This document shows positions 43,587-64,000 of a DNA stretch of 64,000 nt, one piece after another (position 1 is the first letter of the stretch; each line of letters begins with the position of its first letter). Location of the stretch: NCBI GenBank assembly GCA_963845565.1, contig CAWJSJ010000002.1, forward strand, positions 1,344,001 through 1,408,000, in the 5' to 3' direction. The notes below the pieces were generated by a model. That model searched no databases, was not told where the DNA came from, and saw only the letters and a program-made list of their open reading frames with translations. The DNA comes from an uncultured Methylomirabilota bacterium. Its GTDB lineage: Bacteria; Methylomirabilota; Methylomirabilia; Methylomirabilales; 2-02-FULL-66-22. A program made the translations under genes and the position numbers.

Positions 43587-46500
43587 ATGCTCTCGAAATT
43601 CTTCCTGGATCGCCCGGTCTTCGCCTGGGTGATCGCCATCATCATCATGCTGGTGGGCGGCCTCGCCATCTACAATCTGCCCGTCTCGCAGTATCCTCCC
43701 ATCGCTCCCCCGTCGATCTACATCCAGGCCTTCTATCCCGGCGCCTCGGCGGAGACCGTGGAGAACAGCGTGACCCAGATCATCGAGCAGAAGATGACCG
43801 GCCTCGACAAGATGATCTACCTGTCCGCCACCAGCGATTCGGCCGGAGGCGCCCGCCTCGAGCTGACCTTCGCCCCGGGGACCGATCCGGACCTCGCCTG
43901 GTCCAAGGTGCAGAACAAGCTCCAACTCGCCATGGCCAGCCTGCCCGAGGTGGTCCAGCGCCAGGGGGTCACGGTCGGCAAGGCCACCCGGAACTATCTG
44001 ATCATCGTGGGCCTGATCTCGGAAGACGGCAGCATGGACGGCAACGACCTGCAGGGACTATGCCCAGTCCAACCTGGAGAAGGTGCTGGCCCGGGTGCCC
44101 GGCGTGGGCGAGGTGGAGAACTTCGGCTCCCAGTATGCCATGCGCATCTGGCTGAACCCCGACAGGCTGATCGATTACCGCCTGACGATCGAGGACGTTC
44201 TCGCGGCGCTCAAGTCCTACAACGTGGAGGTCTCGGCCGGCCAGTTCGGCGGGGCGCCGGCGGTGAAAGGGCAGCGCCTGAACGCCTCCATCATCGTGCA
44301 GAGCATGCTGAAGACCCCCGAGGAGTTCGCCGCCATTCCCGTCCGCATCAATCCGGACGGCTCCATCGTCCGGATCAAGGATGTGGGACGGGCGGAGCTG
44401 GGAACCGACGCCTACGATATCGAGGCCTTCTACAACGGCAAACCCTCCGCCGGCATGGCCATCCGGCAGGCGGCGGGCGCGAACGCCCTGGATACGGCCG
44501 ATGCGGTCAAGGCCAAGATGACGGAGATGAGCCGCTACTTCCCTCCGGGGATGAAGGTCGTCTATCCCTACGACACCACCCCCTTCGTCAGGGTGGCCAT
44601 CGAGGAGGTGGTCAAGACCCTCTTCGAGGCCATCCTGCTGGTGTTCCTGGTCATGTGGCTGTTCATGGGGAACATCCGGGCCACCCTGATCCCGACCATC
44701 GCGGTGCCGGTGGTGCTCCTGGGGACCTTCGCCGTGCTGGGGTTCTTCGGCTTCTCCATCAACATGCTGACCATGTTCGCCATGGTGCTCTCCATCGGTC
44801 TTCTGGTGGACGATGCCATCGTGGTGGTGGAGAACGTGGAACGGATCATGAGCGAGGAAGGGCTTTCGCCGAAGGAGGCCACGCCGGAAGTCCATGGAGC
44901 AGATCACCAGCGCCCTGATCGGCATCGGGCTGGTGCTCTCGGCGGTCTTCGGCCCCATGGCCTTCTTCGGCGGCTCGACCGGCGTCATCTATCGCCAGTT
45001 CTCCGTGACCATCATCGCCTCCATGCTCCTCTCGGTGGTGGTGGCCTTGATCCTGACGCCCGTCCTCTGCGCCTCGCTCCTCAAGCCGGTGCAGGCCGGG
45101 CACGAGCCCGCGGAGAATGCCATCTGGTTCCTGCGGCCCTTCTTCGCCTGGTTCGACCGCGTCTTCTTCCGGCTCCGCGACCGGTACGTCAAGATCGTCG
45201 AACGCTCCTTCTCCAGGAAGCTGCGCTACGCCGTCGTCTATGTCGTGATCGTGGCGGCCGTGGGATTCCTCTTCCTTCGCCTGCCCACGTCCTACGTTCC
45301 CGACGAAGATCAGGGGATCCTGCTCTCCAAGGTCATGCTGCCCACCGGCTCCACCCTGGAGCAGACCAAGCAGGTCGTGCTCAGACGTGCAGCGGCATTT
45401 CCAGGAGAACGAGAAAGAGGCGGTGGAATCCTGCATGACGATTTCCGGCATCGGCTTCTCCGGACGGGCCCAGACCAACGGCCTGGTCTTCGTCAAGCTC
45501 AAGGATTGGCATCTCCGCAATCGGCCGGACCTGAAGGTGAAGGCCATTGCGGAACGGGCCACGAAGGCCTTCTCCCAGATCCGCAACGCCCTGGTGTTCG
45601 CCTTCCCGCCCCCGTCGGTGATCGAGCTGGGAACCGCCACCGGGTTCGACTTCCAGCTCCTGGACCGGGGCGGACTCGGCCACGAGAAGCTGATGGAGGC
45701 CCGCAACCAGCTCCTCGGCATGGCGGCCAAGGACGCGCGCCTGACCAAGGTCCGGCCCAACGGCATGGAGGATGTGCCCGAATACCGGGTGGACGTGGAC
45801 TGGGAACGAGCCGGCGCCCTCGGGGTCCCCATCACCTCCATCCACAACACCATCTCGGCGGCCTTCGGCAGCGCCTATGTCAACAACTTCATCCAGGGCG
45901 GGCGGGTCAAGCGGGTCTTCCTCCAGGCGGACGCCCCCTACCGCATGCTGCCCAAAGACATCGAGAAGCTCTACGTGCGGAATACCACGGGGAAGATGGT
46001 CCCCTTCTCGCTCTTTCGCCACCGCCCACTGGTCGAGCTGGCTCCCCACGGCTCGAGCGCTTCAATGGCTTTCCGTCCATGAACATCCAGGGGGAGCCGG
46101 CACCGGGGAAGAGCTCCGGTGAGGCGATGCAGGCCATGGAAGAGATCGTCGCGAAACTGCCCCAGGGGATCGGCTATGAATGGACCGGGCTCTCCTATCA
46201 GGAGCGGATGGCGAAGCTCGCAGGCGCCCCTGCTGTATGCCTTTTCCGTCATCGTCATCTTCCTGTGCGTGGCGGCCCTGTACGAGAGCTGGCCGATCCC
46301 GATCGCCAATCTGCTGATGCTGCCCTTGGGCGTATTCGGTGCGGCGCTGGCCACCTGGTCGCGGGGCATGCACAACGATGTCTATTTCCAGATCGGGTTT
46401 CTCACCACGCTCGGCCTGACGACCAAGAACGCCATCCTGATCATCCAGTTCGCCCAGGAGCGGATGGCGCACGGAGAAGGACTGATCGAGGCGACCCTGG

Positions 46501-46772
46501 GGGCGGTCCGGGTGAGATTCCGACCGGTCATCATGACCTCGCTGGCGTTTTTCTTCGGCGTCCTGCCGCTGGCCATCGCCACGGGCGCCGGTGCCGGCGC
46601 CATGAAGGCCATCGGCACCGCCGTGACCGGCGGGATGCTCTCCGCCACCTTCATCGATCTCTTTTACATCCCGCTGCTCTTTGTCGTCGTGTCCCGGCTC
46701 TTCGGAGGAAAGCAACCCCAGACAATCGGTGGGCAACATCCTGATGCCCTCGGGTCGCAGCACGTGCAGTGA
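43587..46772 (+). pseudogene. AcrB/MexB-like RND efflux permease, ~6 frameshifts
   Basis: [39 protein letters not shown]; breaks ~44055, 44885, 45385, 46015, 46045, 46215. Confidence 0.88.
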
Positions 46773-54110: not shown

Positions 54111-54213
54111 GAGCCGTTACGAAATAACCTGTCCAATTCATGTAATTTCGTTTCGGCTCCTTATGCCGTTTCCGAAATTTCTCCGGGCAAGTTATTTTTT
54201 GACAACGGCTTAG
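54107..54213 (-). repeat. Repeat family B, copy 5
   Basis: Fills the mscS/thyX gap and overlaps both stop codons. Confidence 0.9.
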
Positions 54214-55733
54214 AGCCGAGCCAGCGAGTAGTCCTGCAAGTCAACCCGGATGAAGCGGGCGAGGAGCGGGTGGACGCGCTCCAGTTCCCGGAAAACCTGG
54301 TGGGCGATGCGTCGGTAGGCCTCGTGGCCCTGACGACCCGAGCGGAGCTGGACGAAGTGATGGATCTCGCGCAGGTTCCAGGTGAAGAGCGCACGCTTCT
54401 TGTAGGCAAGGGGCAGGACGTACTGGGCCTCCCGCGGAAGGTCAGCGGCGATGGCGGCGTACGCGGCGGAGGCCTCGTCCATGCGCGCGCGGTACGCGTC
54501 CGTGAGGCCGTACCGCGCGATCTCGGGCGGCGTGCCGTACCCGTGGAGCGCCGTGGTCTCCTGGGGAGTCTGGGTGACCATCCGGTGCCGCTGGATGTCG
54601 CGATAGGCGCCGAAATCCACCAGGATGTCGAAGGTGTACGTCAGGTGCTCCAGGGCGCGTAACGGCTGGTCGTAAGGCCCACGGCGCTTCAGGTACTCGT
54701 CGAGAATCCGGATCTTCTCTTCCTTCGCGAGGGCGCGCACGCGGGCGTCGATCTGGACCAACGGGTGGGCCGCGTACCCGTACAGGAGGGCGGCCACCAA
54801 CTGGTCCTCGGCATCCGCGGGGTAACGAACCAGCGTGGCCTCCGCGCTGCCCGTCGGCGGCGTCCCGTCGAGGGCGTCCGTCGCACAACTCTCCATGGCC
54901 CGCCGGGTCTCCACCAGATACGGATTCACATCGGCATACTTGATCAATGTCGGAATGATCTGCTGCGCCTCGGCCTTTATGGCGGCCCCGACCTGCTGCG
55001 CCTCGGCAAGGGGGTGAGACAGGAGCTTACCGATCAACTGCTCGAGGGCGCGACCGTTGATCGTCATGCCGATATTGGTCAGGGTGGCGGCCGGCAAGAG
55101 GTAGCGCAGGACGTCGCACGCCTTGGCGCGGCAGGCATTTTCGAATGCCCGGTCGCTCTGCTTTGCGCCGCGCGGCGCGTCCTTCATGATCGCGGCGACG
55201 AGCGGTTCGGTCAGACGAGTGTAGGTGTCGAGGAGTGCGCCGCACGTCTCCTGGTAGCGCCGCGCGTGCGGCGAATTCAAAATGCTCGGCTCGCGGTAGA
55301 ATTTGTCGCGATCGAAGACCACGTACCGGGTGGATTTCTCGGTGTAGGAGGCGAGGCGGGCGTCCTCCACGATCTTGCTCGCGACGATGGAGACGTCCTC
55401 GATAGCCAGATGAGCCACGGCGTGTTCGGCGACCGAGGCGTGACCGTAACCCACCACCCACTTCTCGTGGAACTCCCGGGCTTTCCGCTTGGCCGAGACG
55501 AGATCGTCCTGGGCGAGGTCCGCCCAGCGAAGGCGGCGATCCAGGTCGAGGTCTTGCTCCTGGATCAGCTTGAGGAGATTCCGCCGCAGGCTCTCGCGGC
55601 TTCGGCTGTAATAGGCGAACAGGACCGCCACCACCTCTTCGGGCAGGTTTCGCAGGGCGAAGATCGGCCGCTCCACGTTGGTCACGTAGGGCTGCAGGAT
55701 CGCGATCTCGTCGGGTGCGAACGTCTCGCTCAT
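54210..55733 (-). CDS. thyX: FAD-dependent thymidylate synthase, tandem Thy1 domains
   Basis: GHASVAEHA, EKSTRY, RYLLP, RDIQRHR, HFVQLR. Confidence 0.88.
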   Translation of the reverse strand: MSETFAPDEIAILQPYVTNVERPIFALRNLPEEVVAVLFAYYSRSRESLRRNLLKLIQEQDLDLDRRLRWADLAQDDLVSAKRKAREFHEKWVVGYGHASVAEHAVAHLAIEDVSIVASKIVEDARLASYTEKSTRYVVFDRDKFYREPSILNSPHARRYQETCGALLDTYTRLTEPLVAAIMKDAPRGAKQSDRAFENACRAKACDVLRYLLPAATLTNIGMTINGRALEQLIGKLLSHPLAEAQQVGAAIKAEAQQIIPTLIKYADVNPYLVETRRAMESCATDALDGTPPTGSAEATLVRYPADAEDQLVAALLYGYAAHPLVQIDARVRALAKEEKIRILDEYLKRRGPYDQPLRALEHLTYTFDILVDFGAYRDIQRHRMVTQTPQETTALHGYGTPPEIARYGLTDAYRARMDEASAAYAAIAADLPREAQYVLPLAYKKRALFTWNLREIHHFVQLRSGRQGHEAYRRIAHQVFRELERVHPLLARFIRVDLQDYSLARL

Positions 55734-55746
55734 CCGGTATCGCCTG

Positions 55747-55814
55747 CTACGCCGTCGTCAACGTATGACGCGACCGGAGGAATTCCAGAGACAGCATATC
55801 GTAACGGCTCCTAA
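55747..55814 (+). repeat. Repeat family B, copy 6 (internally deleted)
   Basis: ctacgccgtcgtcaa...gaccggag...gcata-tcgtaacggctcctaa. Confidence 0.75.
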
Positions 55815-56245
55815 TCCTCCAGATCGTCCTCGTCTTCCACTTCCTGCATGAGGTCGAGGAAGTCCTCGTACCAGTCGGTGCGTTGCTGGAGGATGAACGC
55901 CACACCGTCCTTGATCCAGCCCATGCGGATCTCGCCGATCAGGCCGAGGTAGCGCTCGAAGGTCTTCAGCCGGGCGCGATCGCCATTGCTGGGGCCGGGC
56001 CCCTCCTTCTCGTCCACCCATTCGGCCAGTTCCTGAAGATCCTCCGCCTCCAGCGTTGCGCGGCCGACGAAGAGCGTGCGCACGCCCTCGGCTTTTGCGA
56101 TGCCGAGGAAATCCGGCCACTGGTCGGGGTTGCTCTGCCACCAGACGGTGGGCAAGTCCTCGGCCACGTACCCCGGATAAACCAGCAGGCCCTGCCGCCC
56201 TACAGCGGCCACGATCTCGCTCAACCGATCCGACAAGTCCGTCAT
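55811..56245 (-). CDS. Hypothetical acidic protein
   Basis: Coding-like composition; co-oriented between nuclease gene and thyX. Confidence 0.7.
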   Translation of the reverse strand: MTDLSDRLSEIVAAVGRQGLLVYPGYVAEDLPTVWWQSNPDQWPDFLGIAKAEGVRTLFVGRATLEAEDLQELAEWVDEKEGPGPSNGDRARLKTFERYLGLIGEIRMGWIKDGVAFILQQRTDWYEDFLDLMQEVEDEDDLED

Positions 56246-56299
56246 GGTCTTCACCCGCTCCCATGTCTCGAAAAGGGGCGACCCGCCACCGGGCACGCC

Positions 56300-56842
56300 T
56301 CACGCCCCCCACGCGACAAAGACCGTCCGGTCCTTGCCCTGGGAGGGAACCTTGACAAAACCCTCACGGCGCCCGTGCGCCACCACCTCTCGCAGGATTT
56401 CCACGTCCATACGGCAGTAATCCACCACGCGTTGCCGCAGGGCGGGATCCCCCGATCGCCACCACGTCACCGCCTCGGGGCCCGAACCGGTCTTCTGCTT
56501 CCCCAGGGTGACCTGGGCCACGTCCTGGAGTTTGGGGCGGAATCCCAGCCGGCGCTCCAGGTCCTTGAGCACGTCCAGGCTCTTGGCGCGCAGCGGGGCG
56601 ACCTCGCCGTACGCCGCCAGGACTTCCAGGTCGAACCGGATCCCGTTGTAGGTGATGACCCGGTCGAAGCCGGCGAGTTCCGCGATCAGCCGGGGAACGT
56701 CGGCCTCGTACCAGTCCCGGAATCCGGCCGGCTCGTCCCAGGTCACCGCCACGGAGACGCCGAAGGCCCGAATGTTGTTCCAGCCCCCCGGCACCTCGCT
56801 GGAGAGTCGCTGCGTCTCGACATCCAGATAGATCTCGGTCAC
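56300..56842 (-). CDS. RNase H-like DEDD exonuclease (YprB/RNase_H_2-like)
   Basis: YLDVET, YNGIRFD, YCRMDV (ExoI-III). Confidence 0.85.
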   Translation of the reverse strand: MTEIYLDVETQRLSSEVPGGWNNIRAFGVSVAVTWDEPAGFRDWYEADVPRLIAELAGFDRVITYNGIRFDLEVLAAYGEVAPLRAKSLDVLKDLERRLGFRPKLQDVAQVTLGKQKTGSGPEAVTWWRSGDPALRQRVVDYCRMDVEILREVVAHGRREGFVKVPSQGKDRTVFVAWGA

Positions 56843-57285: not shown

Positions 57286-57690
57286 ATGATCTTCTCGCGC
57301 CTGAAAACGGAACACGACGTGATCGCCGTGATCAAAGAGATCAGCGGCGTGGACGTGCGGGCCTGCTATCAGTGCGGAAAGTGCACGGCCGGGTGTCCGC
57401 TGGCGTCGACCATGGATCTGATGCCGAATCAGATCCTGCGGCTGATCCAGGTGGGCGAACACGAACAAGCCCTGAGATCGCACACGATCTGGCAGTGCGC
57501 CTCCTGCCTCACCTGCGCCGCGCGATGCCCCAAGGAGGTGGATCCGGCGCGCGTCATGGACGCGCTCCGCACCCTGCTGATGCGGCAGGGCACGGTGCGC
57601 GTGGAGATTGCCAGCATTCCAGCCGACGTCTTGGCGGCAGCGCCCCAGCAAGCGCTCATCGGTGGGTTTCGGAAGTTCGTCGGGTATTGA
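57286..57690 (+). CDS. hdrC: Heterodisulfide reductase subunit C-like
   Basis: CYQCGKCTAGCP, IWQCASCLTCAARCP. Confidence 0.9.
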   Translation: MIFSRLKTEHDVIAVIKEISGVDVRACYQCGKCTAGCPLASTMDLMPNQILRLIQVGEHEQALRSHTIWQCASCLTCAARCPKEVDPARVMDALRTLLMRQGTVRVEIASIPADVLAAAPQQALIGGFRKFVGY

Positions 57691-57791
57691 GCGAGTTCAC
57701 ACGCTGATCCGCCCGCCCCCGACCGGGTCGGACTGGTCACGGTGCTCGACGGTTCAAAAATCCTGCGCATGAGACTCGGGGAGGGGGCTCA

Positions 57792-58685
57792 GTGCGTATT
57801 CCCTATTTTCCTGGCTGTACCCTGCACAGTAAAGCGCAGAGCTTCGACGCCTCGGCCCGCGCCGCTGCCCAGGCGCTCGACATCGTCATGGAGGAGTTGC
57901 CGGAGTGGACGTGCTGCGGCGCGACCTTCTCCATGTCGGCGGACAGCGCGATGGGGCTGGTGGCCCCCACCCGGATCCTGGCATCCGCCAAAGAGGCCGG
58001 AAAGCTCCTCACCCTCTGCAGCTTCTGCTACAACACGCTCAAGCGAACCAATCGCGTCATCGCCACCGACGCCGAACGGCGCCGCAAGGTGACGGCGTAT
58101 CTTGAAGAGGACTACCAAGGAACCGTTCAGACGGTCCACCTACTGGAAGTGCTGCGAGACGAGATCGGTTTCGCGGCTCTGGCCACTCGGGTGATCAAAC
58201 CGCTCCGCGGCCTCAAGGTCGCGCCGTACTATGGCTGCCTCCTTCTCCGGCCGGCCGACGAGATGGGATTCGACGATCCCGAGCGACCCACGATTCTCGA
58301 AGGGCTCCTTTCGAGTCTGGGTTGCGACGTGGTGGACTATCCCCACAAGACGGAGTGTTGCGGCTCGTTCGTGGCGGTCGGATCGCCCGACGCGGCCCGG
58401 GAGTGCTCGGCGCGGATCCTGGAGGTTGCGGCCAGGTGCGGCGCCGAGATGCTGGTGGTGAGCTGTCCGCTCTGTCAGTACAACCTCGACCAAGCGCAGC
58501 GCGTGGTGCAGACTGGCTCCGCCCGCCAGACCCGGGTGCCCGTGCTGTATTTCTCGCAATTGCTGGCCATCGCGCTCGGGTGCGATGAGGCCTGCCTGCA
58601 TCTTGACGGACACGCGATGGACCCGCGTCCCCGTTTGGCGGAATGGCTGACGCAGACGAGCCAGGCGACGGCGCTGGCCTCGTAG
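57792..58685 (+). CDS. hdrB: Heterodisulfide reductase subunit B-like (two CCG domains)
   Basis: YFPGC, WTCCG, CSFC, YYGC, ECCG, CPLC. Confidence 0.92.
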   Translation: MRIPYFPGCTLHSKAQSFDASARAAAQALDIVMEELPEWTCCGATFSMSADSAMGLVAPTRILASAKEAGKLLTLCSFCYNTLKRTNRVIATDAERRRKVTAYLEEDYQGTVQTVHLLEVLRDEIGFAALATRVIKPLRGLKVAPYYGCLLLRPADEMGFDDPERPTILEGLLSSLGCDVVDYPHKTECCGSFVAVGSPDAARECSARILEVAARCGAEMLVVSCPLCQYNLDQAQRVVQTGSARQTRVPVLYFSQLLAIALGCDEACLHLDGHAMDPRPRLAEWLTQTSQATALAS

Positions 58686-58699
58686 AGGAGTCCGGACCG

Positions 58700-59392
58700 A
58701 TGGCTGCCGAACCCGCGATGGTGCGATTCTTCTTGATGGGCAAACCGCACGATGTGCCCAGGGGCCTGACCATCCAGAAGGCCATGGAGTATGCCGGATT
58801 CCGGCAACTTCGGGGGTGCGGGTGCCGGGGCGGCTATTGTGGCGCCTGCGGCACGGTCTACCGTACGGCCAACGACTACCGACTGAAGGTCGGATTGGCC
58901 TGCCAGACGGTCGTCGAGGATCAGATGTATCTGGCCCTGATCCCGTTCTTTCCGGCCGTCAAGGCCACCTATCGGGTGGAGGACCTCCCGCCTACGGCGG
59001 AAACTCTCATCGGGCTGTATCCCGAGATCCTCCGCTGCCTCGGCTGCAATACCTGCCGGAAGGTCTGCCCCCAGCAGCTCGAGGTCATGCGGTACATCGC
59101 CGCGGCGCAGCGCGGCGACATCGCCAAGGTGGCCGATCTGTCGTTCGACTGTCTGATGTGCGGGTTGTGCGCCAGCCGATGTCCGGCCGAGATCGTCCAG
59201 TACAACGTGGCCGTCCTGGCCCGGCGGCTCTACGCGCGTCACATCGCGCCCTCGGCGGCCCACCTGGCGGCAAGAGTCCAGGAGATCGAGCAGGGGGAGT
59301 GCGAGGCCGACCTTGACCAGATCGTGGCGGCCGGCGAGGTGGAGTGGCGCAAGATGTACGCCGCCCGCGAGATCGAACCCGAGGAACTCTAG
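58700..59392 (+). CDS. SdhB/FrdB-like Fe-S protein ([2Fe-2S] + 2x[4Fe-4S])
   Basis: GCRGGYCGAC..LACQ; CLGCNTCRKVCP; CLMCGLCASRCP. Confidence 0.85.
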   Translation: MAAEPAMVRFFLMGKPHDVPRGLTIQKAMEYAGFRQLRGCGCRGGYCGACGTVYRTANDYRLKVGLACQTVVEDQMYLALIPFFPAVKATYRVEDLPPTAETLIGLYPEILRCLGCNTCRKVCPQQLEVMRYIAAAQRGDIAKVADLSFDCLMCGLCASRCPAEIVQYNVAVLARRLYARHIAPSAAHLAARVQEIEQGECEADLDQIVAAGEVEWRKMYAAREIEPEEL

Positions 59393-59455
59393 CAAGGTGA
59401 TGAAGGACTCGTCTTTACTCAGGCTGCTCAGCAGCCTGATGGGGGAGGATCTCTC

Positions 59456-61093
59456 GTGCTCTACGAACCCCATATGCTGGAGTCGATCAAGCGTGTCGAG
59501 GCGACCAGGAGCGAGCGCCTGGGTCAGCAGTTTTCTCGCCTCACCGCCGACGAGAAGGCCGCCCTCCTGAAAGGGTACCATCCCGACTATAAGGCGGGAA
59601 CCATGCGGGAGCTTGCCGTCGGCCCGAACGCCGGCGATCGGGTTCCGCACGAGTTGGCGGATCTGCTCGAAGGGCGCGGCCGGATCGACCCCGATGCCGT
59701 GGATCTCGGTCACGCGGACCACGACGTGGACATCCTGGTCATCGGCGGCGGCGGGGCGGGCACCTCGGCCGCCATGTTGGCGCACCAGCGGGGCGCCACG
59801 GTGCTCCTGACGACCAAGCTCCGCCTGGGCGACGCCAACACCATGATGGCGCAGGGCGGGATCCAGGCGGCCGACAAGCCCAACGACTCGCCGGCCATCC
59901 ACTTCCTGGACGTGATGGGCGGCGGCGGCTTCCAGAACATTCCGGAGTTGGTGCGGGCGCTGACCCACGATGCGCCCGCCGCCATGAAGTGGCTGGAGGA
60001 CCTGGGGGCCATGTTCGACAAGGAGTCGGACGGCACCATGGTCTCGATCCACGGGGGCGGGACCTCGCGGCGCAGGATGCACTCGGCCCGGGACTACAGC
60101 GGCGCCGAGATCATGCGGACGCTGCGCGACGAGTTCCGAAACCAGAAGATTCGACACCTCGAATTCACCTCTGCCGTAGAGCTGGTTCTCGACTCCAAGG
60201 GGCAATGCGCCGGGGCGGTCCTCTATGACATGGAGACAGGGGAATACCGGCTCGTCCGGGCCAAGGCGGTGATCCTGGCGACAGGAGGCATGGGACGGCT
60301 TCACGTCCAGCAGTTCCCCTGCACCAACCATTACGGGGCTACCGCCGACGGCCTGGTGATCGCCTATCGGGCGGGCGCCCGGATGGTGTTCATGGACGCT
60401 GTCCAGTACCACCCGACGGGTGTGGCCTACCCCGAACAGATCGTCGGACAGTTGGTGACGGAAAAGGTCCGGGGGCTCGGCGCGCAACTGGTCAACCGCG
60501 AAGGGCGCCGGTTCATCTTCGACCTGGAGACCCGGGACACCGTCTCCGCAGCCATCATCCGCGAATGCCTGGAGCGAGGGAATGGCGTTCAGACGAATAC
60601 CGGCATGGTGGGCGTGTGGCTGGATTCCCCGATGATCGAAATCCTCCGAGGCCCCGGGACCATCGCCAAGGCCCTGCCGGCCATGATGCGCCAGTACCAG
60701 CGGTTCGATCTCGACATGCGCGCGCTCCCCATCCTGGTCTATCCCACGCAGCACTATCAGAACGGCGGGTTGCTGATCGATGCTCACGGGGAGACCGGAA
60801 TCCCCAACCTGTTCGCCGCGGGCGAAGTGTCGGGCGGCGTGCACGGTCGCAATCGGCTGATGGGCAATTCCCTGCTGGATATCCTGGTCTTCGGGCGCCG
60901 CGCGGGCGTGGCGGCGGCGGAGCGAGTATCGAGTGTCACGCAGGGTGACCTCAACCTGGACCATGTCCGTGCGTATCAGGCGCGACTCACGGCATCGGGG
61001 AAAGAGACCGGGCGGCCGTCGCCCATGCTCCTGCCGAACTACGTCCGGCTCGAGACCATCGAGCGGACGGCCGGGGCGGCAAGGGCCGCCTGA
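59456..61093 (+). CDS. FrdA/SdhA/TfrA-like flavoprotein
   Basis: GGGGAG, AQGG, QYHPT, TEKVRG, TRD, HYQNGG, HGRNRLMGNS. Confidence 0.9.
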   Translation: MLYEPHMLESIKRVEATRSERLGQQFSRLTADEKAALLKGYHPDYKAGTMRELAVGPNAGDRVPHELADLLEGRGRIDPDAVDLGHADHDVDILVIGGGGAGTSAAMLAHQRGATVLLTTKLRLGDANTMMAQGGIQAADKPNDSPAIHFLDVMGGGGFQNIPELVRALTHDAPAAMKWLEDLGAMFDKESDGTMVSIHGGGTSRRRMHSARDYSGAEIMRTLRDEFRNQKIRHLEFTSAVELVLDSKGQCAGAVLYDMETGEYRLVRAKAVILATGGMGRLHVQQFPCTNHYGATADGLVIAYRAGARMVFMDAVQYHPTGVAYPEQIVGQLVTEKVRGLGAQLVNREGRRFIFDLETRDTVSAAIIRECLERGNGVQTNTGMVGVWLDSPMIEILRGPGTIAKALPAMMRQYQRFDLDMRALPILVYPTQHYQNGGLLIDAHGETGIPNLFAAGEVSGGVHGRNRLMGNSLLDILVFGRRAGVAAAERVSSVTQGDLNLDHVRAYQARLTASGKETGRPSPMLLPNYVRLETIERTAGAARAA

Positions 61094-61094
61094 C

Positions 61095-61213
61095 GGAAAC
61101 CGACAGGGACAGCGACAGGCAGGACAGGACAGGGACGAGGAAGATGGGGACGACGGGGAGTTGGGGCAACGAGGAGGATTTGACCGCTGTCGCTGGCGGG
61201 TATCGCTATCGGG
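61095..61213. repeat. Hexamer-period intergenic repeat, copy 2
   Basis: gacagggacagcgacagg...gctgtcgctgg. Confidence 0.65.
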
Positions 61214-61227
61214 TGCAGGGATAACAT

Positions 61228-63223
61228 ATGGCACGAACGGGCGTTTTCGTCTGTTGGTGTGGATCGAACATCGCGAAGACGGTAGATGTGGAGCGGGTGG
61301 CCGCCGAGGCAGGGACGATGCCCGGCGTCGTGCACGCGACCGACTACAAGTACATGTGCTCCGAGCCGGGCCAGAACCTGGTGCGCCAGGCGATCACGGA
61401 GCACAGTCTCGACCGGATCGTGGTCGCGTCCTGCTCGCCGCGCCTGCACGAGCCGACGTTCCGCAAGTGTGCCGCCCAGGCCGGCCTCAACCCCTTTATG
61501 GCAGAGATGGCCAACATCCGCGAGCACTGCTCCTGGGTGCACGCGGACCGGATCGAGGCCACCGGGAAGGCTATCGATCTCACCCGGATGGCGATCGCCC
61601 GCATCGCCGGAACGAGCCGCTCTCCCAGGCCCAGATTCCCATCACCAAGAAGGCCCTGGTGATCGGCGGGGGGATCGCCGGAATCCAGGCGGCGCTGGAC
61701 ATCGCCGAGGCCGGCTATCAGGTGACCCTGGTCGAGAAGACCCCCTCCATCGGCGGGCGGATGGCCCAGTACGACAAGACCTTCCCCACGCTCGACTGCG
61801 CGGCCTGCATCCTGACCCCAAAGATGGTCGACTGCGGCTCCAACCCCAATATCCGGATTCTCTCCTACTCCGAGGTCGAGGAGGTCTCGGGTTACGTCGG
61901 CAACTTCGAGGTCAAGATCCGCAGCCGCGCCCGCAGCGTGGACCCGGAGAAGTGCACCGGCTGCGGCGTCTGCTACGAGAAGTGCCCGGTCAAGGTCTCG
62001 TCCGAGTTCGACGTGGGCATGGGCATGCGAAAGGCCATCTATGTGCCGTTCCCGCAGGCCGTGCCGAACGTGCCCGTCATCGACCGGGAGCACTGCACCT
62101 ATTTCGTCAAACAGGGGCGCTGCCGGATCTGTGAGAAGTTCTGCGCGCCGGGGGCCATCCAGTTCGAAGAGCAGGATGAGATCCTCACCGACAAGTTCGG
62201 GGCTATCGTGATCGCCACGGGTTTCGACCTGTGGGACCAGGCGAAGCTGGGGGAATACGGCGGGGGCAAGTTCCCGACGTGATCTCCGGTCTCCAGTTCG
62301 AGCGACTGGTGAACGCCTCCGGGCCGACGAGCGGCAAGGTCGTGCGGCCCTCCGACCACACCGAGCCCAAGACGGTGGTCTTCGTCGCCTGCGTGGGGTC
62401 GCGGGACCCGGCCCACGGCCACTCGTACTGCTCCAAGGTCTGCTGCATGTACACCGCGAAGCAGGCCCTGCTGCTCAAGGAGAAGGTGCACGACGCCAAG
62501 GCCTACATCTTCTATATGGACATCCGCGCCAACGGGAAGGGCTACGAGGAGTTCGTGCAGCGGATGGTGGAGCGCTACGACGCCACCTACGTCCGGGGCC
62601 GCGTCTCCCGGATCTACCCGCTGGACGGCCAGGTGGTGGTGCAGGGGGCGGACACGCTCCTGGGGAAGCAGGTCGAGGTGCGGGCCGATCTGGTGGTGCT
62701 GGCGACGGCCATGGAGCCCCGCGCCGACGCCAAGGAGATGGCCCGCAAGCTGGGCATCTCCACCGATCAGGACCACTGGTTCTCCGAGGCCCACCCGAAG
62801 CTGCGCCCGATCGAGGTCCTCAGCGCCGGCATCTACCTGGCCGGGGCGTGCCAGTATCCCAAGGACATCCCGGACACGGTGGCGCAGGCCTCTGGGGCCG
62901 CCGCCAAGGTGGTGGACCTCTTCTCCAAGCCGCATCTCCTGTCCGAGCCGATGATCGCAGGCGTGGACGAAAGCAACTGTGTGGCCTGCCTCCTCTGCAA
63001 GGAGGTCTGCCCGTTCACCGCCATCGAGGCCGCCGAGGCCATGGACCCGGCGACTCGGAAGATGCGGCCGGTGGCGAAGGTCAACGAAGGCCTCTGCCAC
63101 GGCTGCGGCACCTGCGTTGCGGCCTGCCGGTCGGCCTCCATCCGGCTGCGGGGATTCAGCGACGATCAGATTCTCCTGCAGATCGAGGCGCTGGAACTGG
63201 CCCATAGCGGGGAAGGGGCGTAG
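61228..63223 (+). CDS. hdrA: Heterodisulfide reductase subunit A (frameshifts ~61607, ~62277)
   Basis: GVFVCWCG, SCSPRLH, NIREHC, KTFPTLDCAAC, CVGSRD..YCSKVCC, HPKLRP. Confidence 0.93.
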
Positions 63224-63226
63224 GGC

Positions 63227-63724
63227 GTGTCGAGCAAAGCGCAAGCCGTGGAGAGTCCGGTGGCGGCCCCGAAGTGGGAGCCGGTCATCGTGGCGTTCCT
63301 TTGCAACTGGTGCTCCTACGCGGGGGCAGACCTGGCCGGCTCCAGCCGGCTGAGCTACCCGGCCAACGTGCGGGTGGTGCGGGTGCCGTGCTCGGGCCGG
63401 GTCAACCCCATGTTCGTCATCCAGTGCTTCAAGCGCGGTTTCGATGGTGTGCTCATCGCCGGCTGCCACCCCGGCGACTGCCACTACGCCAAGGGAAACT
63501 TCTACGCCCGCCGCCGGATGCCCCTGGCGCAGGACTTTCTGGAATACCTGGGGGTCGAGCCGGGGCGCATCCGGTTCGACTGGGTCTCGGCCTCCGAGAG
63601 CGGCCGCTTCGCCGAGGTGGTGAGCGAGGTGACCGAGGCGGTGCGGAAGCTCGGCCCCTACACGCGGCGGACGTGGGCTCACGCGCCCGCCCTCCCGACG
63701 GAGCTCGCGCCTGTCCATGAGTAA
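63227..63724 (+). CDS. mvhD: MvhD/FlxD [2Fe-2S] subunit
   Basis: FLCNWCSY, VPCSGRV, GCHPGDCHY, WVSASE. Confidence 0.93.
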   Translation: MSSKAQAVESPVAAPKWEPVIVAFLCNWCSYAGADLAGSSRLSYPANVRVVRVPCSGRVNPMFVIQCFKRGFDGVLIAGCHPGDCHYAKGNFYARRRMPLAQDFLEYLGVEPGRIRFDWVSASESGRFAEVVSEVTEAVRKLGPYTRRTWAHAPALPTELAPVHE

Positions 63725-64000
63725 TCTCGAGGTCACCATCCGCGAGACGGCGGCCCGGCTGCTCCGAGAGGGGCAGGTCGCGGTCGTCTTGGGCTACGAG
63801 GCCGGCAGCGTGCCGTTCCGGACCGCACCCGCCTTCATCGAGCGGGCCGAAGATGCGGGGCGGCTGGTGTGGAACCGCTTCTGCACCAACAATCTCGCCG
63901 TCTACCTGCCCAAGCTCAAAGGCGCCGGCCGCATCGCCCTTTTGGCCAAGGGCTGCGACGCGCGCTCGGCGGTCACGCTGATTCAGGAGCACCAGATCCT
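63717..64000 (+). CDS. FlxC/FrhB-like Fe-S subunit (3' partial)
   Basis: MSNLEVTIRETAARLL...VLGY...CTNNLAVYL...KGCDARS; overlaps mvhD stop; not in ORF track. Confidence 0.75.
   Translation, partial: MSNLEVTIRETAARLLREGQVAVVLGYEAGSVPFRTAPAFIERAEDAGRLVWNRFCTNNLAVYLPKLKGAGRIALLAKGCDARSAVTLIQEHQI

What the first reader, a model, noticed from the sequence alone, without database searches (positions are those of the whole stretch)
57286..64000. Soluble fumarate-reductase-like module inserted inside an hdrCB-hdrA-flxDC operon: candidate electron-bifurcating fumarate reductase
Seen: gene order hdrC, hdrB, FrdB-like, FrdA-like, hdrA, mvhD/flxD, flxC-like, all co-oriented, with no membrane anchor gene. 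Established: hdrCBA-flxDCBA clusters occur in anaerobic bacteria; HdrA bifurcates electrons; methanogen thiol:fumarate reductase couples an FrdA-like subunit to CCG domains. Inference: the high-potential branch (HdrBC, directly or via a thiol carrier) ends in fumarate reduction, coupling NADH oxidation to ferredoxin reduction without quinones. Similar clusters may already be noted in other anaerobes; I cannot check that here.
Basis: partly seen in the sequence, partly recalled or inferred. Interest (0 to 1): 0.8.

Follow-up and report, generated by a model that had tools for sequence, protein, structure and literature searches.

The report
Hdr-Flx-linked soluble fumarate reductase operon
This nine-gene operon joins a membrane-free fumarate-reductase-like enzyme to an electron-splitting Hdr-Flx module and likely uses NADH to make succinate while also reducing ferredoxin; the idea has been in print since 2019, but the short HdrC subunit seen here occurred only in genomes that also carry this reductase, which points to a dedicated connector between the two halves.

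Summary
The gene order is real and continues beyond the window with intact flxB and flxA. The host is an uncultured Methylomirabilales bacterium. hdrA is split by two 1-base deletions that near-identical contigs lack, so these are likely assembly errors. The flavoprotein keeps the fumarate-reducing residues, lacks the covalent-FAD His and NadB's Glu121, and forms its own clade apart from TfrA, NadB and SdhA. The pairing is widespread: 39 of 51 well-flanked relatives have hdr genes nearby. I found no biochemical test. New here: the short (~130 aa) HdrC and its HdrB form a lineage tied to the reductase. 32 of 32 Bacillota and 6 of 6 Chloroflexota genomes with it carry the flavoprotein, even when unlinked, against 7 of 128 with only long HdrC. 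Bifurcation and direct docking remain inferred. Verdict: new member of a known, untested kind; interest 0.4.

The parts
57286..57690 (+). Short-type HdrC (134 aa, 2x[4Fe-4S] motifs, ends in a PQQ...RK tail, about 50 aa shorter than the 184-aa methanogen HdrC)
   Evidence: subtype test
57792..58685 (+). HdrB of the short-HdrC lineage; two CCG domains with all ten cluster cysteines (C9, C41, C42, C76, C79, C149, C189, C190, C225, C228)
   Evidence: tree
58700..59392 (+). FrdB-like Fe-S subunit: N-terminal [2Fe-2S] domain, HdrC-like 2x[4Fe-4S] domain, C-terminal helices; no [3Fe-4S] motif, no CCG domain
59456..61093 (+). FrdA-like flavoprotein (545 aa): H319, T335, E336, R339, R360, H433, R467 match E. 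coli FrdA H232, T244, E245, R248, R287, H355, R390; Asn128 replaces the covalent-FAD His44; N-terminal extension of about 85 aa; no PF02910 C-terminal domain
61228..63223 (+). HdrA, read in three frames because of two single-base deletions (behind 61604 and 62261) that are likely assembly errors; the Lys409 equivalent is at 62459
63227..63724 (+). FlxD/MvhD ([2Fe-2S] protein)
   Evidence: PF02662, 181 bits
63717..64000 (+). 5' part of FlxC (gene ends at 64685; flxB and flxA follow outside the window)

Best explanation
The operon encodes a soluble FrdAB-like pair plus a complete HdrABC-FlxABCD module, which together likely form an electron-bifurcating NADH:fumarate/ferredoxin oxidoreductase. 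Inferred path: FlxA oxidises NADH, and electrons pass through FlxB, FlxC and FlxD to the FAD of HdrA. HdrA would send the low-potential electrons to ferredoxin. It would send the high-potential electrons through the dedicated short HdrC and its HdrB directly, without a free thiol carrier, to the 2x[4Fe-4S] and [2Fe-2S] clusters of the FrdB-like subunit and on to the non-covalent FAD of the flavoprotein, which reduces fumarate. Net: 2 NADH + fumarate + 2 Fd(ox) -> 2 NAD+ + succinate + 2 Fd(red). Shown here: gene content, conserved catalytic and cluster-binding residues, absence of a membrane anchor, co-occurrence pattern. Inferred: complex formation, direction, bifurcation, absence of a carrier. 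In this organism it likely serves the anoxic reductive TCA branch, with the korA-korB-korG-sucC-sucD cluster elsewhere on the same contig as a likely ferredoxin sink.
For: Active site: the seven FrdA catalytic positions are conserved in 78-81 of 81 family rows; the misses are gaps, except one Thr-to-Ser (E. coli numbering). His44 is Asn in 81 of 81, as expected of a non-covalent-FAD enzyme that favours reduction (established knowledge, recalled). The model's top fold matches are soluble flavocytochrome c3 fumarate reductase (Z 41.7, rmsd 2.0, 390 aligned) and E. coli FrdA (Z 39.2, rmsd 3.3, 429 aligned). Context: of 51 related loci with at least 5 kb upstream, 51 have the Fe-S gene, 39 an hdr gene and 28 a fumarase, malic enzyme, Kor or SucCD gene. 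In an evenly drawn Bacillota sample, 27 of 46 loci have such TCA genes and 21 of 46 have the short hdrC. Dedicated connector: 32 of 32 genomes with a full short-HdrC tail have the flavoprotein, as do 6 of 6 in a Chloroflexota sample of 221 where only 7 have it. Only 7 of 128 genomes with long HdrC alone have it. The short HdrC/HdrB pair travels with hdrA-flx in some genomes (L243-L252) and with the frd pair alone in others (L043, L200, L210). The neighbouring HdrBs form one side of a branch with support 100 (35 vs 24 rows). Against a thiol shuttle: the Fe-S subunit has no CCG domain, unlike TfrB; in 19 of the 32 genomes the short HdrC is the only HdrC match; this genome has no DsrC match. HdrA keeps the Lys409 equivalent (PMC6405883 passage). 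The reaction is exergonic by 33-53 kJ/mol for ferredoxin at -500 to -400 mV (with recalled potentials). The genome has two ordinary SdhA genes elsewhere.
Against: No biochemical test was found in the papers I could read, and direct contact between subunits was not tested. HdrB keeps all ten cluster cysteines, which fits retained disulfide chemistry equally well. 12 of 44 flavoprotein genomes in the Bacillota sample have no short HdrC, and 12 of 51 loci have no hdr/flx gene nearby, so the pair can take other electron donors. In Endoriftia, tfrAB did not follow the expression pattern of the rest of the cluster (PMC11636981 passage). For the analogous MetFV-HdrABC-MvhD complex the low-potential acceptor is still listed as unknown (PMC5861303). 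FrdA Phe116 is replaced by Gly200 next to His199 (80 of 81), so the substrate pocket differs. The Bacillota count is partly circular (22 of 35 rows of the tail model came from that sample), and related genomes are not independent. No fumarase gene lies in this operon, and no Rnf was found in the genome.
Confidence: 0.45

Rival explanations
1. Bifurcation through a thiol shuttle, as a split Tfr. The short HdrC and its HdrB act as the thiol-oxidising half that methanogens fuse into TfrB, and a second Hdr re-reduces an unknown bacterial disulfide.
For: All ten HdrB cysteines are kept. The Fe-S subunit plus HdrB together hold the domains of TfrB. Some loci hold both a short and a long hdrCB pair (L004, L006, L009, L012, L197, L202). 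This genome has a second, long-type hdrCBA-mvhD cluster. Proposed in print (PMC6315080 supplement).
Against: In 19 of 32 genomes the short HdrC is the only HdrC match, and in 10 genomes it sits with hdrA-flx rather than with frdBA. No DsrC match here. I did not count other CCG proteins in those genomes.
Confidence: 0.2
2. A plain, non-bifurcating soluble NADH:fumarate reductase, with the Hdr-Flx subunits acting as a wire and redox valve, like the irreversible five-subunit enzyme of Hydrogenobacter thermophilus.
For: Such enzymes exist (PMC13147460 passage). Ferredoxin reduction has not been shown for MetFV-HdrABC-MvhD. No Rnf was found in this genome.
Against: A full HdrA with the Lys409 equivalent is kept. 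Kor genes are interleaved in related loci (L005, L039, L063, L078), which suggests a ferredoxin output.
Confidence: 0.17
3. The acceptor is another enoate or dicarboxylate (for example mesaconate), or the enzyme is promiscuous.
For: Phe116 is replaced by His-Gly in the pocket. The family sits on a long branch of its own. Same-genus paralogues lie beside divergent class I hydratase and citrate-lyase-like genes (L107, L108, L111).
Against: Fumarase, malic enzyme, SucCD and Kor neighbours are frequent. The like-sized operon of the succinate producer P. thermosuccinogenes starts with fumC.
Confidence: 0.11
4. The operon is decaying in this strain because hdrA is broken, or the flavoprotein is an L-aspartate oxidase that happens to sit here.
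For: Two frameshifts in hdrA. NadB was the weakly supported sister in both trees (support 86 with a long-branch warning; support 39).
Against: Near-identical contigs carry the missing bases. Other genes of the assembly are split the same way. Glu121 is absent, although it is present in all 22 NadB-type motifs matched among 30 loci. NadB forms a separate clade (99).
Confidence: 0.07

Closest known systems
'Succinate operon' of Pseudoclostridium thermosuccinogenes (CDQ83_RS03365-RS03315; PMC7282089, citing the Koendjbiharie & van Kranenburg 2019 preprint)
   Same: Seven Flx-Hdr genes plus a two-gene fumarate reductase, proposed to couple succinate formation to ferredoxin reduction. Gene spans match this family: RS03325 676 bp, RS03320 1603 bp, and RS03355 only 325 bp, the size of a short HdrC. 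Loci L222, L230 and L232 show the same layout.
   Different: There the reductase follows the Flx-Hdr genes and fumC leads the operon; here it sits between hdrB and hdrA, with no fumarase. Sequence identity was not measured: I could not obtain those proteins.
tfrAB-korABCD-flxABCD-hdrABC rTCA cluster of tubeworm symbionts and Thioflavicoccus (PMC6315080, PMC11636981, PMC13147460)
   Same: Anchor-less reductase pair interleaved with Hdr-Flx; both direct bifurcation and a thiol route were proposed. The same Kor-interleaved layout occurs in relatives found here (L005, L039, L063, L078).
   Different: No kor or citrate-lyase genes in this operon; a kor-suc cluster lies elsewhere. No sequence comparison was possible.
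FlxABCD-HdrABC of Desulfovibrio and other anaerobes (Ramos et al. 2015; seen only as cited)
   Same: All seven subunits, in the order hdrC, hdrB, hdrA, flxD, flxC, flxB, flxA.
   Different: Two inserted genes; short HdrC and a separate HdrB lineage, whereas all 20 control loci from flavoprotein-negative genomes have long HdrC of 187-227 aa; no DsrC match.
Thiol:fumarate reductase TfrAB of methanogens (NCBIfam NF004900, NF004898)
   Same: Best NCBIfam model for the flavoprotein (347 bits); 38-43% identity; no covalent-FAD His; soluble.
   Different: Below the cut-off of 718; separate clade; no PF02910 domain; extra N-terminus; CCG domains are not fused to the Fe-S subunit.
MetFV-HdrABC-MvhD of Moorella thermoacetica (PMC5861303 passages)
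   Same: An Hdr module purified in one complex with a non-disulfide terminal reductase.
   Different: Different terminal enzyme, no Flx; its ferredoxin branch is still unidentified.

Membership tests
Flx-Hdr-linked soluble fumarate reductase (P. thermosuccinogenes / Endoriftia type) | Anchor-less frdBA pair clustered with hdrABC-flxABCD | tested here: met
Flx-Hdr-linked soluble fumarate reductase (P. thermosuccinogenes / Endoriftia type) | Subunit sizes like the published locus | tested here: met
   RS03325 676 bp, RS03320 1603 bp, RS03355 325 bp against about 225, 535 and 130 aa in the family
Flx-Hdr-linked soluble fumarate reductase (P. thermosuccinogenes / Endoriftia type) | Sequence orthology to the published proteins | tested here: inconclusive
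   Published proteins were not among the 120 listed hits; preprint and AEM 2018 paper not held
Flx-Hdr-linked soluble fumarate reductase (P. thermosuccinogenes / Endoriftia type) | NADH- and fumarate-dependent ferredoxin reduction | not testable with these tools
   needs an anaerobic enzyme assay
HdrABC-FlxABCD | All seven subunits present | tested here: met
   hdrA split by likely assembly errors
HdrABC-FlxABCD | HdrA lysine at the bifurcating FAD (Lys409 of 5ODC) and ten HdrB cluster cysteines | tested here: met
HdrABC-FlxABCD | DsrC as disulfide acceptor (sulfate-reducer type) | tested here: not met
   no PF04358 match in the 98.7% complete genome
TfrAB | TfrA model cut-off and clade | tested here: not met
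   347 vs 718 bits; separate clades; a sister relation is not rejected, p-AU 0.38
TfrAB | CCG domains fused to the Fe-S subunit | tested here: not met
   230-aa subunit without PF02754; TfrB control has two
Respiratory complex II (SdhA/FrdA) | Dicarboxylate catalytic residues | tested here: met
Respiratory complex II (SdhA/FrdA) | Covalent-FAD His, [3Fe-4S] motif, membrane anchor | tested here: not met
   Asn128 in 81 of 81; twelve conserved Cys giving 2x[4Fe-4S]; no hydrophobic segment
Type E / MFR (SdhABE) complexes | NCBIfam cut-offs for SdhA and SdhE | tested here: not met
   HdrB scores best with SdhE (179 vs cut-off 500; HdrB model 161); flavoprotein 197 vs 1100
L-aspartate oxidase NadB | Glu121 and NadB clade (role of Glu121 recalled) | tested here: not met
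   Gly200 in 80 of 81; NadB is its own clade with support 99; 278 vs 453 bits

The most novel reading that the evidence does not exclude
The short HdrC and its HdrB are a distinct, previously unrecognised HdrBC lineage that gave up free disulfides to become a dedicated docking adapter. The nine proteins form one carrier-free HdrA-bifurcating complex that reduces fumarate (+33 mV), giving many quinone-independent anaerobes extra reduced ferredoxin from succinate formation. The 50-residue tail marks such complexes in genomes even when the two halves are unlinked.
Probability: 0.35. Interest if true: 0.75.

Novelty: new member of a known kind. Interest (0 to 1): 0.4.

Why it matters
HdrA-based bifurcation in bacteria mostly lacks an identified high-potential acceptor outside sulfate reducers. 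If this module works as proposed, fumarate is that acceptor in about one in ten genomes of the Bacillota sample (44 of 401) and in several other phyla. That would change the energy bookkeeping of soluble succinate formation and of the reductive TCA branch. The proposal dates from 2019, so this locus is not a discovery in itself, and an uncultured host with assembly errors is a poor test object. The added value is the short-HdrC/HdrB marker. It argues that coupling runs through HdrBC, finds unlinked cases, and names the subunits to swap or delete when testing direct docking against a thiol shuttle.

Tried and rejected
Complex prediction of short HdrC + HdrB + Fe-S subunit was not available, so direct docking is untested. 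The 2019 preprint and the AEM 2018 paper were not held; the preprint may already hold comparative genomics, including the short HdrC. Two protein searches did not list the P. thermosuccinogenes or symbiont proteins among their top 120. Literature searches for Methylomirabilota + fumarate reductase + heterodisulfide and hdrC + frdA + flxA + succinate found nothing; none of my nine successful searches targeted 'short HdrC' by that phrase. A word search of earlier findings gave nothing. The careful tree did not finish and one script returned no answer, so both flavoprotein trees are quick trees; the second leaves out six divergent rows and thins near-duplicates. The sister group is unresolved. 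My first Fe-S query and two flxB/flxA read-outs were out of frame and were discarded. Metatranscriptome contigs give short, shallow pieces over several genes; with no silent-stretch control this is not evidence of expression. The citrate-lyase family search rang in no control genome and is uninformative. No sigma-70-type promoter was found. Residues 1-68 of the flavoprotein were not covered by fold matches and were not folded alone. The Atlas search only confirmed FAD_binding_2 clusters. Rejected: NadB, TfrA proper, type E/MFR, respiratory SdhAB, pseudogene, chance insertion.
Full report
Observation. The window is part of contig C2 of a 5.36-Mb genome, 98.7% complete. Its closest named relatives are Methylomirabilales/NC10 (81-89% flavoprotein identity). 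The + strand holds hdrC, hdrB, an Fe-S gene, a flavoprotein gene, hdrA, flxD and flxC; flxB and flxA follow outside the window. No subunit has a membrane-like segment. hdrA is read in three frames. Near-identical contigs have one more base at each break, two close relatives have one HdrA ORF, and other genes of this assembly are split in the same way. I therefore treat the breaks as assembly errors. A third close relative (L103) also has a fragmented hdrA.

The flavoprotein. It aligns with E. coli FrdA at His232, Thr244, Glu245, Arg248, Arg287, His355 and Arg390. These are kept in 78-81 of 81 family rows. His44 is Asn in all 81. The position of FrdA Phe116 and NadB Glu121 is Gly in 80 of 81. 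It lacks PF02910 and has an extra N-terminus. The best NCBIfam model is TfrA, at 347 bits against a cut-off of 718. In two quick trees the family is one strongly supported clade (100), apart from TfrA (100), NadB (99 in the second tree) and SdhA/FrdA. Its sister is unresolved: NadB support 39, TfrA not rejected at p-AU 0.38. The AlphaFold model (pLDDT 90.7) matches flavocytochrome c3 (Z 41.7) and FrdA (Z 39.2) best. The genome has two ordinary SdhA genes and a weaker NadB-like gene elsewhere.

The Fe-S subunit has twelve cysteines kept in 72-73 of 73 rows: one [2Fe-2S] and two [4Fe-4S] motifs, where E. coli FrdB has a [3Fe-4S] motif. It has no CCG domain, unlike TfrB. The top fold matches of its dicluster domain are HdrC chains (Z 10.8, rmsd 2.3, 87 aligned; Z 9.7); these are modest scores. 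HdrB keeps ten cluster cysteines. HdrA keeps the lysine that contacts the proposed bifurcating FAD in 5ODC (PMC6405883, passages read).

Conservation. 504 stretches in GTDB genomes encode a relative, and the best 80 were kept. Of the 51 with at least 5 kb upstream, 51 have the Fe-S gene, 39 an hdr gene, 28 a fumarase, malic enzyme, Kor or SucCD gene, and 12 no hdr/flx gene. The window's exact order was seen only in close relatives (L002, L003, L103). In an evenly drawn Bacillota sample, 44 of 401 genomes have the flavoprotein. Of 46 fetched loci, 27 have TCA-branch neighbours and 21 the short hdrC. Among 20 same-genus genomes, 9 have a match; several of these are paralogues in other contexts.

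A dedicated HdrC/HdrB lineage. The HdrC here is 134 aa and ends in a PQQ...RK tail, about 50 residues shorter than solved HdrCs. In the Bacillota sample 160 genomes have an HdrC match. 32 match the whole tail, at E <= 2e-14, with the next hit partial at 9e-7. All 32 have the flavoprotein, against 7 of the other 128. In 21 the two lie within one 20-kb stretch, in one they are probably separated only by contig ends, and in 10 an hdrB-hdrC-hdrA-flxDCBA operon lies apart from a fumarase-frdBA operon. In 19 of the 32 the short HdrC is the only HdrC match. This count is partly circular, since 22 of the 35 tail-model rows came from that sample. I therefore repeated it in 221 Chloroflexota genomes: 6 have the tail and all 6 are among the 7 with the flavoprotein (5 of 5 without the seed genome). 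A WOR-3 genome whose frd locus has no hdr genes carries the tail elsewhere; one of the five genomes in that call lacked it. As a control, 20 top-scoring HdrC loci that I picked from flavoprotein-negative genomes are all long (187-227 aa), and 16 show complete flxDCBA. HdrBs beside short HdrC form one side of a branch with support 100 (35 vs 24 rows). Kin are not independent and many genomes are drafts. 12 of 44 flavoprotein genomes lack the short HdrC, so the tie runs one way.

Mechanism. The most likely reading is NADH -> FlxABCD -> HdrA FAD, with one branch to ferredoxin and one through short HdrC/HdrB to FrdB and FrdA. With recalled potentials (NADH -320 mV, fumarate +33 mV) the net reaction is -33 to -53 kJ/mol. 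The tabulated -58 kJ/mol for fumarate + NADH (PMC13147460) makes it about 10 kJ less, still favourable. The reverse direction is unlikely. Direct transfer is preferred because the frd pair has no thiol site of its own and many genomes have only one HdrC. A thiol shuttle stays possible: HdrB is intact, and this genome has a second, long-type hdrCBA-mvhD cluster. The genome has a heme-copper oxidase, an acetyl-CoA synthase match, FumC-like genes and a korA-korB-korG-sucC-sucD cluster, with no match for Rnf, DsrC or class I fumarase. A role in the anoxic reductive TCA branch is inference.

What is known. [quoted passage not shown] Its gene spans fit this family, including a 325-bp gene at the short-HdrC position. 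PMC6315080 (passages and the whole of supplement Text S1 read) proposes direct bifurcation or a thiol route for tfrAB interleaved with flx-hdr and kor. PMC11636981 (passages) reports co-expression of that cluster but with tfrAB deviating. PMC13147460 (passages) repeats the proposal in 2026 as a suggestion. PMC5861303 (passages) gives the MetFV-HdrABC-MvhD analogue. Ramos 2015, Heim 1998 and Miura 2008 were seen only as cited. Earlier findings of this scan describe the same kind on other DNA; I read them after forming my view and did not use them as support.

Verdict. A real operon and a new member of a published but apparently untested kind, here in Methylomirabilota and with the reductase inserted between hdrB and hdrA. 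The short-HdrC/HdrB lineage is the one addition that I did not find in the texts I could read; the unread preprint may contain it. Interest 0.4.

Noticed in passing
L107:3586-11979, L108, L111 (same-genus genomes): A divergent paralogue of the flavoprotein (53-56% identity; HGGGTS changed to TPAGHS in L107) lies with a class I hydratase alpha/beta pair and the Fe-S gene; L107 and L111 also have an ATP-grasp protein and a CoA-ligase/citrate-synthase-domain protein. No hdr genes; possibly another substrate.
   Followed up: partly
L005, L039, L063, L078: kor genes interleaved with hdrA-flx and hdrCB-frdBA, like the tubeworm-symbiont cluster, in Armatimonadota-related, Chloroflexota and deltaproteobacterial genomes.
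   Followed up: no
L004:5139-5462 and six similar loci: A conserved protein of about 100-110 aa with no Pfam match sits between hdrB and the Fe-S gene; candidate accessory subunit or carrier.
   Followed up: partly
L197-L211, L025, L029, L030, L065, L066: Variants in which a very large HdrA-like protein (1000-1500 aa), mvhD and a 370-aa Fe-S protein replace flxCBA upstream of frdBA, suggesting another electron input.
   Followed up: no
L258-L274: Long-type hdrA is often split into about 194 + 460 aa and flxD cut at about 71 aa at the same places; probably selenocysteine codons, not checked.
   Followed up: no
G000:C1:596758-600812, C1:619130-620996, C1:533218-534171: A second, long-type hdrCBA-mvhD cluster, a separate flxBA-like pair and a third HdrB-like gene in the same genome.
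   Followed up: partly
window 44083-46772; G000:C2:497375-497830; C2:2688031-2689360: An RND efflux pump gene, the acetyl-CoA synthase gene and a COX1 gene are also split across frames, which points to indel errors across the assembly. Heme-copper oxidase and acetyl-CoA synthase occur in one genome.
   Followed up: no
window 59456-59660: The first 68 residues of the flavoprotein are conserved in the family and confidently modelled, but were not covered by fold matches; a candidate docking arm.
   Followed up: no
window 54210-56842, - strand: Divergent upstream genes: a two-domain ThyX-like protein (507 aa), a 161-aa unknown and an RNase_H_2-family protein; not seen among the common neighbours of the module.
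   Followed up: no
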